Assembly: GCF_009914755.1 (NCBI RefSeq)
Contig: NC_060940.1
Source of the DNA: the human T2T-CHM13v2.0 reference genome, Homo sapiens
Reading direction: 5' to 3' (one strand)
Length of the DNA: 64,000 nucleotides
Positions 49,450-62,994 of the stretch are shown one piece after another; within the stretch, counting starts at the first letter, position 1; every line of letters starts with the position of its first letter. Position numbers and translations under genes: made by a program. The notes beneath the pieces are model-generated. The model saw only the letters and a list, made by a program, of their open reading frames with translations. It was not told the origin of the DNA and did not search any database.

Positions 49450-50938
49450 GGGCCCAGCAGGGAGCTCGTATGCCGCTCGTGCCTGAAGCAGACGCTGCAC
49501 AAGCTGGAGGCCATGATGCGCATCCTGCAGGCAGAGACCACCGCGGGCACCGTGACGCCCACCGCCATCGGAGACAGCATCCTCAACATCACAGGTGCCG
49601 CGGCCCGTGCCCCACGCCACCCGCCCGCCCCACGTGGCCCGTCCGCCCCATGCCGCCCTTTCCTCTGCCTCCCTCCTCCCCACAACCGCCTCGCCTTTGC
49701 CCCATCCCATCTTCGTCCCCCTCCCCTCCCCCCAATTCCCATCCTCATCCCCCTCCCCCAATTCCCATCCTCATCCCGCTCCCCCAATTCCCATCCTCAT
49801 CCCGCTCCCCCAATTCCCATCCTTATCCCCCTCCCCCAATTCCCATCCTTATCCCCCTCCCCCAATTCCCATTCTCCTCCCCCTCCCCCTTCCCTATTAC
49901 CATCCCTTTTCTCCATCTCTCTCCCCTTTTCTCCATTTCCCCCCCGATCCTCCCCGTCCTTTTGTCCATTCCCCTCATCTTTCTTATCCCCCTTATCCTC
50001 CTTCCCCTCCCTTATCCCCCTTCCCCTCCCTTCCCCCTGCTCCTCTTCTTCTCCCCTTTCTCTTTTCTCTACCCTTTTCCTTCCTTTTTCCTCCCTCTCC
50101 CCATCATCCCCCTCATCTTCGTCCTCATCCCCATCCCCTTCCCCCTCCCCCTCCACCACTCTCTCTCCAGCTTCCCCCTTCCTTCTGCCTGCACCTCGCT
50201 CTCTGCCCCCTCAGGTTCCCCCTTTCTCCCAGTCCCCACCCTCCGGCTCCCCCTTTTTGCCTGCCCCCACCCTCCCTCTGCCTCCCTGTCTCTGCACTGA
50301 CCTCACGCCTGTCTGCAGGAGACCTCATCCACCTGGCCAGCTCAGACGTGCGGGCACCACAGCGCTCAGAGCTGGGAGCCGAGTCACCATCGCGGATGGT
50401 GGCGTCCCAGGCCTACAACCTGACCTCTGCCCTCACGCCCATCCTCACGCGCTCCCGCGTGCTCAACGAGGAGCCCCTGACGCTGGCGGGTGAGGAGATC
50501 GTGGCCCAGGGCAAGCGCTCGGACCCGCGGAGCCTGCTGTGCTATGGCGGCGCCCCAGGGCCTGGCTGCCACTTCTCCATCCCCTAGGCTTTCAGCAGGG
50601 CCCCGGCCAACCTCAGTGACGTGGTGCAGCTCATCTTTCTGGTGGACTCCAATCCCTTTCCCTTTGGCTATATCAGCAACTACACCGTCTCCACCAAGGT
50701 GGCCTCGATGGCGTTCCAGACACAGGCCGGCGCCCAGATCCCCATCGAGCGGCTGGCCTCAGAGCGCGCCTCACCGTGAAGGTGCCCAACAACTCGGACT
50801 GGGCTGCCCGGGGCCACCGCAGCTCCGCCAACTCCGTTGTGGTCCAGCCCCAGGCCTCCGTCGGTGCTGTGGTCACCCTGGACAGCAGCAACCCTGCGGC
50901 CGTGCTGCATCTGCAGCTCAACTATACGCTGCTGGACG
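49450..50938 (+). pseudogene. PKD1P3: PKD1P exons 22 (49450-49594) and 23 (50319-50938)
   Basis: 145 nt and 620 nt (PKD1 ex23 is 630: 1-bp and 9-bp deletions); TAG at 50585. Confidence 0.9.
49655..50300. repeat. Second pyrimidine tract (intron 22) with a ~22-bp 'ccccaattcccatcctcatccc' minisatellite
   Basis: C/T-rich; about six repeats at 49731-49872. Confidence 0.9.
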
Positions 50939-51886
50939 GTGCATGCAGCGGTTGGGGCACACGCGGCCCCCTGGCCTTGTTCTTGGGGGAAGGCGTTTCT
51001 CGTAGGGCTTCCATGGGTGTCTCTGGTGAAATTTGCTTTCTGTTTCATGGGCTGCTGGGGGCCTGGCCGGAGAGGAGCTGGGGGCCACGGAGAAGCAGGT
51101 GCCAGCTCTGGTGCAGAGGCTCCTATGGCCTTTCAGGCCCATGGCAGAGGGTGGGCTCAGGAGGGCCATCGTGGGTGTCCCCCGGGTGGTTGAGCTTCCC
51201 GGCAGGCGTGTGACCTGCGCGTTCTGCCCCAGGCCGCTACCTGTCTGAGGAACCCGAGCCCTACCTGGCAGTCTACCTGCACTCGGAGCCCCGGCCCAAT
51301 GAGCGCAACTGCTCGGCTAGCAGGAGGATCCGCCCAGAGTCCCTCCAGGGTGCCGACCACCGGCCCTACACCTTCTTCATTTCCCCGGGGTGAGCTCTGC
51401 GGGCCGGCCTGGCAGGGCAGGGCAGGGCATCATGGGTCAGCATTGCCCGGGTTACGGGCCCCGTGGGGACGGCAGGCAGCGAGGGGACTGGACCGGGTAT
51501 GGGCTCTGGGACTTCGACATCCAACCTGGCGGAGCCTGGGCTCACGTCCACTGCCCCTTCCCTTCCCAGGACCAGAGACCCAGTGGGGAGTTACCGTCTG
51601 AACCTCTCCAGTCACTTCCGCTGGTCGGCGCTGGAGGTGTCCGTGGGCTTGTACACGTCCCTGTGCCAGTACTTCAGCGAGGAGGACGTGGTGTGGCGGA
51701 CAGAGGGGCTGCTGCCCCTGGAGGAGACCTCGCCCCGCCAGGCCGTCTGCCTCACCCGCCACCTCACCGCCTTCGGCACCAGCCTCTTCGTGCCCCCAAG
51801 CCATATCCGCTTTGTGTTTCCTGTGAGTGACCCTGTGCTCCTGGGAGCCTCTGCAGAGTCGAGGAGGGCCTGGGTGGGCTCGGCTC

Positions 51887-51946
51887 TATCCTGAGAAGGC
51901 ACAGCTTGCACGTGACCTCCTGGGCCTGGCGGCTGTGTCTTCACAG
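51887..51946 (+). ncRNA. MIR6770: miR-6770 precursor (tailed mirtron ending at the intron-25 acceptor)
   Basis: 5p TGAGAAGGCACAGCTTGCACGTGA; 3p CTGGCGGCTGTGTCTTCACAG. Confidence 0.85.
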
Positions 51947-52559
51947 GAGCCAACAGCGGATGTAAACTACATCGTCATGCTGACATGTGCTGTGTGCCTG
52001 GTGACCTACATGGTCATGGCCGCCATCCTGCACAAGCTGGACCAGTTGGATGCCAGCCGGGGCCGCGCCATCCCCTTCTGTGGGCAGCGGGGCCGCTTCA
52101 AGTACGAGATCCTCGTCAAGACAGGCTGGGGCCGGGGCTCAGGTGAGGGGCGCGGCGGGGTGGCAGGGCCTCCCCTGCTCTCACTGGCTGTGCTGGTTGC
52201 ACCCTCTGGGAATGAGTCTCGTCGCAGGCGTCAGAACAAGGCAGTTTTTGCAGTACTGTGTGAAGGGCTCGTGTGTTCATCCTGGGAATGACCTCGTGAG
52301 CACTCACTGTCCCTGAGGACTAGGACAGCTCCTAGCTGGAAGTAGGTGCCAGTCAGTCAGGGTGGGCAGCCCACGTTCTGCACAGTAGCGTGGCCCCACA
52401 AGTGACATGAGCATCGCTACCACTGTGGGAGACCATGCATCCACCCGCGATCCTGACTGCATAGCTCGTCTCTCAGGCGGAGGTGCCAGCACCCTCCCCG
52501 TGGCTGTTTCTTCAATACCTCCATTTTCCTTTATTGGAATTGCCCTTCTGGCATTCCCT

Positions 52560-52836
52560 TTTTGTTTTCGTTTTTCTTTTTTTGGAGACGGAGTCTCGCT
52601 CTGTTGCCCAGGCTGGAGTGCAATGGCGTGATCTTGGCTCACAGCAACTTCCAGCTCCTGGGTTTAAGCGATTCCCCTTAAGCGATTCTCCTGAGTAGCT
52701 GGGAGTACAGGTGCACACCACCACACCCAGTTAATTTTTCACCATGTCAGCCAGGCGAACTCCTGACCTCAGGTGATCCGCCTGCCTCGGCCTGCCAGAG
52801 TGCTGGGATGACAGGTGTGAGCCACCACACCTGGCC
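52560..52836 (-). mobile_element. Alu (internally deleted)
   Basis: Antisense Alu in intron 26. Confidence 0.85.
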
Positions 52837-62400: not shown

Positions 62401-62512
62401 ATGGCTTGAGCCCAGGAGCTGGAGGTTGCAGTGAGCCGAGATTGCACCACTGCACTCCAGCCTGGGCGACTGAGTGGAGCGGAACTCTGTCTCAAAAAAA
62501 AAAAAAAAAAAA
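59485..62512. mobile_element. Alu cluster in NPIP intron 1
   Basis: +59485-59760, -59798-60077, -60161-60468, -60953-61249, +61481-61770, +61900-62208, +62210-62512. Confidence 0.85.
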
Positions 62513-62625
62513 TTTTTTTTTTTAGATCATCAGCTATTGTTAGTGTTAGTGTATGTTATGTGTGGCTCAAGACAACTTTGCTTCTTTTAATATAGGCAGG
62601 GAAGTCAAAAGATTGGATATCCCTG
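61797..62625 (-). mobile_element. MER30 hAT MITE split by two Alus
   Basis: Halves 'ggctgcatgtggcccaggacag...aacacaaatttgtaaactttcttaaaacat' and 'catcagctattgttagtgttagtgt...aaaagattgga' are antisense MER30. Confidence 0.7.
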
Positions 62626-62865
62626 CTTTATACCAAGAAAGACAACACCCCACATTTGCAATGCCTAAAAACACTACCAGCCATCTGAAAAACATGAGAC
62701 TTCTCTAACTTCTGTTCTTTTTTGTAGCAGTGGAATCCCACGGTGATATCTGAGGGATGTGGTTACCTTTTGGAGGAGGTTGACGGTTTCTAAGGATGAT
62801 TCTTTCTGAGTGAAATATTGTCAGTGTCATTGACCTTTTCATTATTTCAACTATTATTATTCCAG

Positions 62866-62994
62866 GTTATCAATACTCTGGCTGACCATCGTCATCGTGG
62901 GACTGACTTTGGTGGAAGTCCTTGGTTACTTATCATTACTGTGTTTCTGAGAAGTTATAAATTTGCCATCTCCCTCTGCACAAGTTACCTTTGT
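62866..62994 (+). CDS. NPIPA1: NPIPA exon 2 (hydrophobic segment); gene continues beyond the window
   Basis: ttccag acceptor; [43 protein letters not shown]; gtgagt donor; 129 nt, phase 0/0. Confidence 0.92.

What the first reader, a model, noticed from the sequence alone, without database searches (positions are those of the whole stretch)
50773..62994. Lesion-free PKD1 exon 23-30 frame is in phase with NPIP exon 2: candidate polycystin-TM/PLAT-NPIP fusion protein
Seen: after the exon-23 frameshift (50770) the spliced PKD1 frame stays open for 1425 nt (475 codons) through exons 23'-30, with GPS, TM1, PLAT, TM2 and TM3 intact. Stops flank it on both sides (ex23 50585; ex31 56326; ex33 56726). 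Exon 30 ends in phase 0 (...FRMSRSK) and NPIP exon 2 starts in phase 0 (VINTLADH...). The first in-frame ATG is 51977 (MLTCAVCLVTYMVM; stronger Kozak at 52016), giving 273 PKD1-derived residues fused to NPIP. Known: PKD1P-NPIPA read-through transcripts are annotated, generally as non-coding, and I recall long-read work noting fusion ORFs, so the fusion is not wholly new. Inference: this 'pseudogene' block may donate a multi-pass membrane/lipid-binding module to the rapidly evolving NPIP protein. A conserved PLAT Trp is changed here (LSPAWF to LSPARF).
Basis: partly seen in the sequence, partly recalled or inferred. Interest (0 to 1): 0.85.

Follow-up and report, generated by a model that had tools for sequence, protein, structure and literature searches.

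The report
Known PKD1 pseudogene–NPIPA1 fusion frame
The tail of a polycystin-1 pseudogene here does keep an open reading frame that could splice in phase into the neighbouring NPIPA1 gene, but this frame looks like neutral leftover, the fusion idea is already published, and this copy is one of the weaker candidates.

Summary
A 1425-nt, 475-codon PKD1-frame stretch (50773-50938 plus exons 24-30) is open. It is flanked by stops at 50585, 56326 and 56726. Exon 30 and NPIP exon 2 are both phase 0. ATG 51977 would give 273 PKD1 residues plus 329 NPIPA1 residues, 602 aa.

The open frame is no more than chance gives. Among the six PKD1P copies, exons 24-30 carry 35 substitution events against 35.9 expected from the intron mutation spectrum. 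They split 21 N: 14 S: 0 stops against 23.3: 11.0: 0.7 expected, so P(no stop) is 0.50.

The only RefSeq read-through here (NR_146231.1) includes exons 31-32 and an 86-nt exon and stops at 56326. The exon 30-to-NPIP exon 2 junction is annotated in a paralogue, NR_146336.1 (885 open codons).

Iso-seq PKD1-NPIP fusion ORFs up to 843 aa at all six loci were published in Cell Genomics 2025. Protein evidence is lacking.

This copy also has a private Trp-to-Arg change in PLAT, and its first ATG lies inside TM1.

Verdict: real feature, already known, most likely an incidental ORF. Interest is low.

The parts
50319..50938 (+). Homologue of PKD1 exon 23 (620 nt against 630 in PKD1). It carries the shared nonsense codon, a 1-nt deletion and a 9-nt in-frame deletion.
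   Evidence: Alignment to PKD1.
50585..50587 (+). TAG stop in the PKD1 frame (PKD1 codon 2810, GAG>TAG), shared by all 6 PKD1P copies. Its AG is also the acceptor of the annotated exon 50588-50781.
50770..50771 (+). Site of the 1-nt deletion (PKD1 codon 2872), present in P3, P1 and P5 only.
50773..50938 (+). In this frame the upstream stop is TGA at 50617.
51233..51389 (+). Exon 24 homologue: 6 substitutions against PKD1, no lesion.
51570..51822 (+). Exon 25 homologue with the GPS motif (weak Pfam GPS match, 16.4 bits, below the 22.5 cut-off). 11 substitutions.
51947..52142 (+). Exon 26 homologue: first hydrophobic segment (TM1) and the start of PLAT.
51977..51979 (+). First in-frame ATG (PKD1 codon 3078, inside TM1). 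273 PKD1-derived codons follow. Further ATGs at 52010 and 52016.
53638..53808 (+). Exon 27 homologue: PLAT, Pfam PF01477, 34.3 bits for this piece alone.
53895..54038 (+). Exon 28 homologue: the end of PLAT.
53909..53911 (+). CGG (Arg) in place of the PLAT Trp (PKD1 codon 3195). Private to this copy among the 7.
   Evidence: PLAT score is 14.6 bits here against 22.2 for the P1 exon, which differs only at this residue.
54133..54343 (+). Exon 29 homologue: second hydrophobic segment (TM2).
54434..54560 (+). Exon 30 homologue: third hydrophobic segment (TM3). It ends in phase 0. Its donor is identical in all 7 copies.
56227..56464 (+). Annotated read-through exon made of exon 31 (56227-56343), retained 68-nt intron 31 and exon 32 (56412-56464). 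The private TGA at 56326 ends the PKD1 frame. ATG 56452, in another frame, opens a frame that reaches NPIP exon 2.
56689..56775 (+). Remnant of exon 33 with TAG at 56726. PKD1 homology ends at about 56775.
58510..58572 (+). NPIPA1 coding exon 1 (21 codons). The proposed fusion would bypass it.
   Evidence: Annotation.
58632..58717 (+). 86-nt exon used by the annotated read-through between the exon 31-32 block and NPIP exon 2.
62866..62994 (+). NPIPA1 exon 2, phase 0, Pfam NPIP 59 bits. Its acceptor is identical in all 6 loci.

Best explanation
The interval is the 3' part of the unprocessed pseudogene PKD1P3 (homologues of PKD1 exons 23-33). It abuts the LCR16a duplicon that carries NPIPA1. The two are co-transcribed as the read-through RNA PKD1P3-NPIPA1.

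Exons 24-30 are free of stops and frameshifts simply because a 1.3-kb, 64% G+C stretch that differs from its parent by about 2.4% is expected to escape a disabling hit about as often as not.

The phase-0/phase-0 match of exon 30 and NPIP exon 2 was fixed when PKD1 sequence was first placed beside LCR16a. All six PKD1P-NPIPA duplicons inherited it.

A polycystin TM1-3/PLAT-NPIP ORF therefore arises whenever splicing skips the exon 31/32 block. RefSeq shows this for PKD1P4-NPIPA8, and shows exon 31 to exon 2 splicing for PKD1P6-NPIPP1. Iso-seq shows fusions at all six loci.

At this locus the documented isoform keeps exons 31-32 and the 86-nt exon, so the PKD1 frame ends at 56326, far upstream of the last junction. 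By the 50-nt rule (inference) that predicts NMD.

The most likely role of the PKD1P3 exons is as non-coding 5' leader or alternative first exons for NPIPA1 transcripts, not as a selected protein module.

Shown: the anatomy, the frames, the paralogue junctions and the neutral substitution pattern. Inferred: lack of translation, and NMD.
For: Frame and lesions.

Annotated isoform structure, and its stop at 56326.

Paralogue fusion ORFs: NR_146336.1 has 885 open codons. NR_123721.1 and NR_123722.1 have 829 and 840.

Neutrality in exons 24-30 across the 6 copies: 35 events against 35.9 expected from the intron spectrum. The split is 21 N: 14 S: 0 stop against 23.3: 11.0: 0.7, with P(S>=14) = 0.18 and P(0 stop) = 0.50. 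Omega <= 0.5 is disfavoured: P(>=35 events) = 0.016, and 0.0005 for omega 0.3.

P3 versus PKD1: pN/pS is 0.48 in exons 24-30 and 0.55 elsewhere, Fisher p = 1.0.

Small indels are absent from P3 exons 2-14 and 17-22 as well. Exon indel density (3 in 2059 nt) matches the non-repetitive intron rate, which predicts 2.5.

Chance long ORFs occur in the same exons: 228 open codons in another frame and 256 on the reverse strand.

ATG 51977 is 5127 nt from the annotated 5' end, with 46 upstream ATGs.

The private Trp-to-Arg change costs 7.6 bits of PLAT score.

[quoted passage not shown] Their role is unknown and proteomic support is sparse (PMC12790995).
Against: None of the six copies has a stop or frameshift in exons 24-30. 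The only indel is an in-frame 3-nt deletion in P6.

The exon 30 donor and the NPIP exon 2 acceptor are identical here and in P4, where the direct junction is annotated. Nothing in the sequence forbids the junction here.

The Cell Genomics paper lists A1 among the six loci with PKD1-NPIP fusions and calls the maintained ORFs remarkable. Its Table S5, which I could not see, may hold an A1 isoform with exactly this junction.

NR_123722.1 begins inside exon 23 of P6. RefSeq lists an H3K27ac-H3K4me1 hESC element at 50976-51788. An internal start site that would bring ATG 51977 near a cap is therefore not excluded.

The neutrality test rests on 35 events in one genome. It cannot exclude weak constraint (omega about 0.7-1) or very recent selection.
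Confidence: 0.72

Rival explanations
1. A real polycystin-fragment/NPIPA1 fusion protein is made from this locus. A minor isoform starts at an internal promoter in exons 23-26, skips the exon 31/32 block and the 86-nt exon, and is translated from ATG 51977 or 52016. The product is a 590-602-aa protein in which a truncated TM1 acts as signal anchor. PLAT faces the cytoplasm, TM2-TM3 follow, and NPIPA1 forms a cytoplasmic tail.
For: The ORF is intact to the NPIPA1 stop, 602 aa. There are three hydrophobic segments and a PLAT match. The splice sites are identical to those of P4, where the junction is annotated. The stop would lie in the last exon, so no NMD is predicted (inference). A1 is listed among the fusion-bearing loci. 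There is an hESC chromatin element at 50976-51788.
Against: The junction is not annotated here. The exon 31 acceptor has a more pyrimidine-rich tract in P3/P1/P5 than in P2/P4, and the RefSeq read-throughs at P3, P1 and P5 all include exon 31. Evolution is neutral. The conserved PLAT Trp is lost privately in this copy. The fragment lacks TM4-11 and the C-terminal tail of polycystin-1, because homology ends in exon 33. No protein evidence is reported in the passages read.
Confidence: 0.1
2. The PKD1P3 exons matter as regulatory RNA sequence for NPIPA1 rather than as protein. They would donate a promoter or 5' leader exons, upstream ORFs, and alternative start codons. The start codons are the ATG at 54546 at the end of exon 30 and the ATG at 56452 in exon 32 read in another frame. 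These would tune NPIPA1 output or change only its first few residues.
For: The MANE transcripts of NPIPA6, NPIPA8 and NPIPA9 start 23-24 nt inside PKD1P exon 30 and use exons 31-32 as 5' UTR. In NR_146231.1, ATG 56452 plus the 86-nt exon reads in frame into NPIP exon 2. At the P1-A6 locus the same frame is open for 387 codons to the NPIPA stop in NR_172900.1. Six of the 10 published fusions are not multi-exonic. A PKD1/NPIP transcript is among the most abundant NPIP ESTs.
Against: The select NPIPA1 transcript here begins at its own exon 1 (58510) without PKD1P exons. I could not examine any expression or reporter data. In NR_146231.1 the frame from ATG 56452 ends early, at 250 open codons, in an extra 70-nt exon.
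Confidence: 0.3
3. The frame is kept open by recurrent gene conversion from functional PKD1, which erases lesions without any selection on the pseudogene.
For: Divergence from PKD1 is uneven. Exon 26 has 0-2 differences and exon 31 has 0 in P6, against 10-12 differences in exon 25.
Against: The 500-column sliding divergence is fairly even, 8-19 differences per window, and similar in P3, P4 and P6. 18 substitutions in exons 24-30 are fixed in all six copies against PKD1. The shared stop at 50585 has not been erased in any copy. No conversion is needed to explain zero stops when only 0.7 are expected.
Confidence: 0.08

Closest known systems
PKD1-NPIP fusion transcripts and ORFs from Iso-seq (Cell Genomics 2025, PMC12790995; passages and section 10 read)
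   Same: It concerns the same six PKD1P-NPIPA duplicons, with A1 named. PKD1 exons are joined in frame to NPIP exons. The function is stated as unknown and protein validation as lacking.
   Different: The paper's longest models (nine PKD1 exons, 530 aa; ORFs up to 843 aa) fit the P4-A8 and P6-A4 structures I reconstructed: 845 and 789-800 aa from the first Met. This copy can give at most 602 aa, because the 1-nt deletion and the lack of an upstream Met cut it back to exon 26.
RefSeq NR_146336.1, PKD1P4-NPIPA8 read-through
   Same: The splice-site sequences are identical to this locus.
   Different: P4 has no 1-nt deletion, so the frame is open from just after the shared exon 23 stop (885 codons, first Met at 41). 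It keeps the PLAT Trp. It is annotated non-coding.
RefSeq NR_123721.1 / NR_123722.1, PKD1P6-NPIPP1 read-through
   Same: The PKD1 frame is fused in phase to NPIP, with 829 and 840 open codons.
   Different: The junction is exon 31 (117 nt, phase 0 to 0) to a tandemly duplicated NPIP exon 2. Here exon 31 carries a private stop. NR_123722.1 starts inside exon 23, and its 800-aa ORF begins at the third ATG.
Polycystin-1 (PKD1), as in PDB 6a70 chain B
   Same: Exon 28 aligns over all 47 residues to the solved chain (E 2e-22). PLAT and three hydrophobic segments are present in the native order.
   Different: This is only a fragment (PKD1 codons about 2873-3350, translatable from 3078). It has no ectodomain, no TM4-11 and no C-terminal tail. 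It differs from PKD1 at 19 nonsynonymous positions in exons 24-30, including the PLAT Trp.
Human-specific truncated duplicate genes (SRGAP2C, NOTCH2NL, ARHGAP11B), as cited in PMC12790995
   Same: If functional, it would work like these: a truncated copy of an essential gene acting through a retained domain.
   Different: Those have demonstrated proteins and phenotypes (as cited; I did not read those papers). Here no protein evidence exists in what I read, and the substitution pattern is neutral.

Membership tests
PKD1P-NPIPA read-through/fusion loci | A PKD1 pseudogene lies directly upstream of an NPIPA gene on the same strand. | tested here: met
   PKD1 homology runs to about 56775 and NPIPA1 exon 1 is at 58510, both on the + strand (annotation).
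PKD1P-NPIPA read-through/fusion loci | A spliced transcript joins PKD1P exons to NPIP exons. | tested here: met
   RefSeq NR_146231.1 has this exon chain, with AG/GT at all 13 exons checked. The reads themselves were not examined.
PKD1P-NPIPA read-through/fusion loci | The PKD1 reading frame continues into the NPIP frame in an observed isoform of this locus. | tested here: not met
   In NR_146231.1 the PKD1 frame ends at TGA 56326. It is met only for the unannotated 54560>62866 junction.
Polycystin-1 / PLAT-domain proteins | A PLAT/LH2 domain is recognisable. | tested here: met
   The exon 27 piece scores 34.3 bits (cut-off 23). The exon 28 piece scores 14.6 bits.
Polycystin-1 / PLAT-domain proteins | The conserved PLAT Trp is retained. 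| tested here: not met
   There is an Arg codon at 53909-53911. The identical exon with Trp (P1) scores 22.2 bits against 14.6.
Polycystin-1 / PLAT-domain proteins | The full 11-TM core with the channel-like TM6-11 and the C-terminal tail (feature list recalled from knowledge of PC1). | tested here: not met
   Homology to PKD1 ends inside exon 33. There are only three hydrophobic segments.
GAIN/GPS autoproteolytic module | A GPS motif preceded by a complete GAIN domain in one frame. | tested here: not met
   The GPS motif scores 16.4 bits, below the 22.5 cut-off. Upstream sequence is broken by the stop at 50585 and the 1-nt deletion, and there is no ATG between 50617 and 51977 in this frame.
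Protein-coding gene under purifying selection | A deficit of nonsynonymous and total substitutions relative to neutral sequence. | tested here: not met
   35 events against 35.9 expected; N:S is 21:14 against 23.3:11.0. Omega <= 0.5 gives P = 0.016.
Protein-coding gene under purifying selection | Evidence of translation (ribosome footprints, peptides). | not testable with these tools
   There is no read or proteome access. The literature searches found none for PKD1P. The paper itself states that proteomic support is sparse.
Transcribed unprocessed pseudogene | Intron-containing copy of a parent gene with several disabling lesions. | tested here: met
   Stops at PKD1 codons 554, 2430, 2810, 3384 and 3420. 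There is a 1-nt deletion, exons 15-16 are almost wholly missing, and exon 1 and exons 34-46 are absent.

The most novel reading that the evidence does not exclude
The PKD1P-NPIPA duplicons encode a hominid-specific family of membrane-anchored NPIP proteins. Their N-terminal half would be a polycystin-1 TM1-PLAT-TM2-TM3 cassette. The A1 locus would contribute a short 602-aa version, made from an internal start site in exons 23-26 by skipping exons 31-32. Its Trp-to-Arg PLAT would be a diverged, perhaps lipid-binding-altered, variant.
Probability: 0.07. Interest if true: 0.6.

Novelty: already known. Interest (0 to 1): 0.22.

Why it matters
If such fusions were translated, a fragment of the main polycystic-kidney-disease protein would be attached to one of the fastest-evolving ape gene families. 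That would matter for NPIP function and possibly for PKD1 biology.

The idea has already been raised from long-read data. What this check adds is locus-level:
- The open frame carries no signal of selection.
- The annotated isoform at this locus is not in frame.
- The P4-A8 and P6-A4 loci are better candidates for protein tests than this copy.

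Tried and rejected
(1) Indel depletion as a sign of constraint. The raw intron indel rate (18 events in 4111 nt) predicts 5.5 indels in exons 24-30, against 1 seen. 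But 13 of the 18 intron events lie in tandem or homopolymer contexts. The remaining rate predicts 1.5 in exons 24-30, and 2.5 for all 2059 exon nt against 3 seen. P3 exons 2-14 and 17-22 also have no small indels. Rejected.

(2) An unweighted Nei-Gojobori-style ratio among paralogues (21 N on 940.7 sites, 14 S on 310.3 sites; about 0.49) looked like constraint. With transition and CpG rates taken from the introns of the same alignment, the neutral expectation is 23.3: 11.0. Exon 23, which holds the shared stop, gives 12:7 against 12.3:6.4. Rejected.

(3) Searching protein databases for a deposited fusion protein. I did not run this. The search for homologous proteins only sees proteins 0.55-1.75 times the query length, single exons are at most 84 aa, and a spliced protein is a joined sequence that may not be typed. 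So whether NCBI or UniProt hold such a record is untested.

(4) Structure prediction of the fusion or of the Trp-to-Arg PLAT. Not run, for the same reason.

(5) Rfam scan of 49000-64000. No match at gathering thresholds.

(6) Literature on translation of PKD1 pseudogenes.
- One search listed 4 of 5 papers; I opened none.
- One search found 9,265 papers holding at least 3 of 6 terms; none of the 15 listed contained 'PKD1P', so it was uninformative.
- One search found only papers that cite the 2001 'Homologues to the first gene...' study. I recall that study as concluding the homologues are pseudogenes, but I did not read it.

(7) Check for further copies. A genome search with 51233-54560 found 7 full-length copies, PKD1 plus six, at 97-100% identity. 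The remaining 84 of 91 matches were partial hits of 75-655 nt to query positions 1316-1995, inside intron 26; I take them for repeats, but no call named the repeat family. Matches in closed regions are not shown.

Full report
WHAT IS THERE. The window is chr16:14880001-14944000 of T2T-CHM13. I projected the exons of PKD1 (NM_001009944.3, exon phases) onto the window through a seven-sequence alignment of PKD1 and the six PKD1P copies.

The homologues in the window are:
- exon 22: 49450-49594
- exon 23: 50319-50938
- exon 24: 51233-51389
- exon 25: 51570-51822
- exon 26: 51947-52142
- exon 27: 53638-53808
- exon 28: 53895-54038
- exon 29: 54133-54343
- exon 30: 54434-54560
- exon 31: 56227-56343
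- exon 32: 56412-56464
- part of exon 33: 56689-56775, where homology to PKD1 ends

NPIPA1 exon 1 is 58510-58572 and exon 2 is 62866-62994.

Joining 50773-50938 to exons 24-30 gives 1425 nt, 475 codons, with no stop.
- TAG at 50585 (PKD1 codon 2810)
- a 1-nt deletion between 50770 and 50771 (codon 2872)
- TGA at 56326 (codon 3384)
- TAG at 56726 (codon 3420)

In-frame ATGs lie at 51977, 52010, 52016, 53661 and 54546. 51977 is PKD1 codon 3078 and leaves 273 PKD1-derived codons.

Exon 30 ends in phase 0. NPIPA1 exon 1 has 63 coding nt, so exon 2 starts in phase 0. The ORF from 51977 through exon 30 and NPIPA1 exons 2-8 is 602 aa and ends at the normal NPIPA1 stop.

Domain content, tested exon by exon (unless stated):
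- exon 27 scores 34.3 bits for PLAT
- exon 28 scores 14.6 bits for PLAT
- exon 25 scores 16.4 bits for GPS, below the cut-off
- NPIP exon 2 scores 59 bits for the NPIP family
- a hydropathy scan finds three hydrophobic segments, in exons 26, 29 and 30
- exon 28 aligns over all 47 residues with solved polycystin-1 chains (6a70_B, E 2e-22)

The Trp-to-Arg change is real and is private to this copy among the 7. The same exon from PKD1P1 differs only at that residue. It scores 22.2 bits against 14.6 here, so the position is strongly conserved in the PLAT profile.

THREE QUALIFICATIONS.

First, the 1425 nt assume the canonical exon 23 donor at 50938. The one RefSeq read-through of this locus, NR_146231.1, uses cryptic sites inside exon 23 (50489>50588 and 50781>51233).

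Second, that transcript continues from exon 30 into a 238-nt exon (exon 31, retained 68-nt intron 31 and exon 32), then an 86-nt exon (58632-58717), and only then NPIP exon 2. There the PKD1 frame ends at 56326. So the 54560>62866 junction is hypothetical here.

Third, the GPS is intact only as DNA. No ATG precedes 51977 in the frame, so the GPS would not be translated. The start codon itself sits three residues into the first hydrophobic segment.

THE JUNCTION EXISTS IN PARALOGUES. RefSeq NR_146336.1 (PKD1P4-NPIPA8) splices exon 30 directly to NPIP exon 2. It carries an 885-codon open frame running from just after the shared exon 23 stop to the NPIPA8 stop, with the first Met at codon 41.

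NR_123721.1 and NR_123722.1 (PKD1P6-NPIPP1) splice exon 31 (117 nt, phase 0 to 0) to a duplicated NPIP exon 2. They carry 829 and 840 open codons. NR_123722.1 starts inside exon 23, and its 800-aa ORF begins at the third ATG.

The exon 30 donor and the NPIP exon 2 acceptor are identical in P3 and P4. The exon 31 acceptor has a more pyrimidine-rich tract in P3/P1/P5 than in P2/P4. The RefSeq read-throughs at P3, P1 and P5 all include exon 31.

IT IS IN PRINT.
- The Cell Genomics 2025 paper on the NPIP family (PMC12790995; passages, section 10 part 1; preprint passages) reports 10 distinct PKD1-NPIP fusions for the six NPIP paralogues next to PKD1 pseudogenes (A1, A4, A6, A7, A8, A9). Four are multi-exonic, with up to nine PKD1 exons (530 aa) joined to eight NPIP exons (343 aa) and ORFs up to 843 aa. 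It says their role is unknown and that proteomic support for the new models is sparse.
- A 2026 preprint lists NPIP-PKD1P among 'known examples' of such fusions (passages). Another cites PKD1-NPIPA fusion as previously reported (one passage).
- Earlier work from the same field called a PKD1/NPIP fusion transcript one of the most abundant NPIP ESTs. [quoted passage not shown]

IS THE OPEN FRAME MORE THAN CHANCE? No.

(a) Stop density in this copy. Outside exons 24-30, P3 has 5 stops in 1681 aligned codons. At that density 475 codons escape with P = 0.24, and 417 codons with P = 0.29.

(b) Indels. Small indels are absent from P3 exons 2-14 and 17-22 as well. The only two are in exon 23.

(c) P3 against PKD1. 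pN/pS is 0.48 in exons 24-30 (19 N, 13 S) and 0.55 in the other exons (52.5 N, 33.5 S), Fisher p = 1.0.

(d) All six copies lack stops and frameshifts in exons 24-30, but they are not independent. They form three clades: P3 with P1/P5 (0.16-0.47% apart), P2/P4 (0.24%), and P6. The clades are 1.4-1.7% apart, and each copy is 2.3-2.5% from PKD1.

I counted sites that vary among the paralogues, which are changes on pseudogene lineages. Exons 24-30 have 21 nonsynonymous, 14 synonymous and 0 stop events, plus one in-frame 3-nt deletion.

I took CpG and non-CpG transition and transversion rates from the introns of the same alignment (95 events on 3893 sites). With those rates the neutral expectation is 35.9 events, split 23.3: 11.0: 0.7. 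That gives P(S>=14) = 0.18 and P(no stop) = 0.50.

Constraint at omega 0.5 or 0.3 would give 23.6 or 18.7 events. P(>=35) is then 0.016 or 0.0005.

(e) Indels against introns. Introns show 18 events in 4111 nt, 13 of them in tandem or homopolymer contexts. The rest predict 2.5 events in the 2059 exon nt, and 3 are seen.

(f) The sequence is 64% G+C. Long open frames arise by chance in the same exons: 228 codons in another frame and 256 on the reverse strand.

TRANSLATABILITY HERE. In NR_146231.1, ATG 51977 is 5127 nt from the 5' end and is preceded by 46 ATGs. The longest ATG-initiated ORF of that transcript is 616 codons, from 49470 to 56326. It reads exons 22-23 out of the PKD1 frame and ends far upstream of the last junction, which predicts NMD by the usual rule (inference).

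An internal start site is not excluded. RefSeq lists an hESC H3K27ac-H3K4me1 element at 50976-51788, and a P6 transcript starts in exon 23. I could examine no CAGE or read data.

WHAT THE PKD1P EXONS MORE PLAUSIBLY DO. The MANE transcripts of NPIPA6, NPIPA8 and NPIPA9 begin 23-24 nt inside PKD1P exon 30 and use exons 31-32 as 5' UTR.

At this locus, ATG 56452 in exon 32 (not the PKD1 frame) plus the 86-nt exon reads in frame into NPIP exon 2. At the P1-A6 locus the same frame is open for 387 codons to the NPIPA stop (NR_172900.1).

So the duplicon supplies leader exons and alternative starts to NPIPA genes. This fits the six non-multi-exonic fusions of the published ten (inference).

VERDICT. 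The feature is real and correctly described. It belongs to a published class. It shows no sign of selection. At this particular copy it is hypothetical at the transcript level and is weakened by a private PLAT change. The P4-A8 and P6-A4 loci are better targets for protein tests.

Limits of this check:
- one genome only
- 35 substitution events
- no reads, footprints or peptides
- no database search for a deposited fusion protein, and no structure prediction, because spliced sequences could not be handed to those tools
- seven full-length copies were found in the genome, but matches in closed regions are not shown

Noticed in passing
window 50585-50588: The shared nonsense change (GAG>TAG, PKD1 codon 2810) makes a pyrimidine-TAG|G acceptor. 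The annotated exon 50588-50781 starts right after it, so the annotated splice 50489>50588 removes the stop codon itself. NR_146331.1 at P5 has the same 194-nt exon.
   Followed up: partly
window 51887-51946 and 44336-44402: MIR6770-1 ends on the last base of intron 25 (exon 26 starts at 51947). MIR6511A1 ends on the last base before the exon that starts at 44403. Both therefore look like splice-defined (mirtron-like) hairpins inherited from PKD1 introns. Rfam gave no match in 49000-64000.
   Followed up: no
window 56344-56411: Intron 31 is 68 nt in P3, P1 and P5 but 87 nt in PKD1, P2, P4 and P6. In the three short-intron copies the RefSeq transcripts retain it as a 238-nt exon.
   Followed up: partly
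window 56452-56464, 58632-58717, 62866-62994: An ATG in exon 32, read in a non-PKD1 frame, plus the 86-nt exon, is in frame with NPIP exon 2. This gives an alternative NPIPA1 N-terminus in the annotated read-through. The same frame is open for 387 codons in NR_172900.1 at the P1-A6 locus.
   Followed up: partly
chr16:16340281, 18343979, 18391116 (loci L005, L009, L011): The MANE Select transcripts of NPIPA6, NPIPA8 and NPIPA9 begin 23-24 nt inside PKD1P exon 30 and use exons 31-32 as 5' UTR. The PKD1 duplicon therefore supplies their leader, and perhaps a start site.
   Followed up: no
window 43038-44131: PKD1P3 lacks nearly all of exons 15-16. Only the first 98 nt of the 3620-nt exon 15 align (43500-43597), and exon 16 gives only a poor 55-nt match elsewhere.
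   Followed up: no
window 52005-54454: A 228-codon open frame in a non-PKD1 frame spans exons 26-30. It recurs in the read-through transcripts of the four other paralogues translated (P6, P1, P4, P5; 227-228 codons). It is a reminder that long ORFs are cheap in this G+C-rich sequence.
   Followed up: yes
chr16:15115493-15120014 (loci L003, L014): The NPIPP1 locus has NPIP exon 2 twice, 129 nt each, both in frame in NR_123721.1 and NR_123722.1. This agrees with the tandem exon 2 duplication mentioned in PMC7419210.
   Followed up: partly
window 50976-51788: RefSeq lists an H3K27ac-H3K4me1 hESC enhancer over intron 23 to exon 25. It could reflect an internal regulatory element, or cross-mapping from PKD1 and the other copies.
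   Followed up: no
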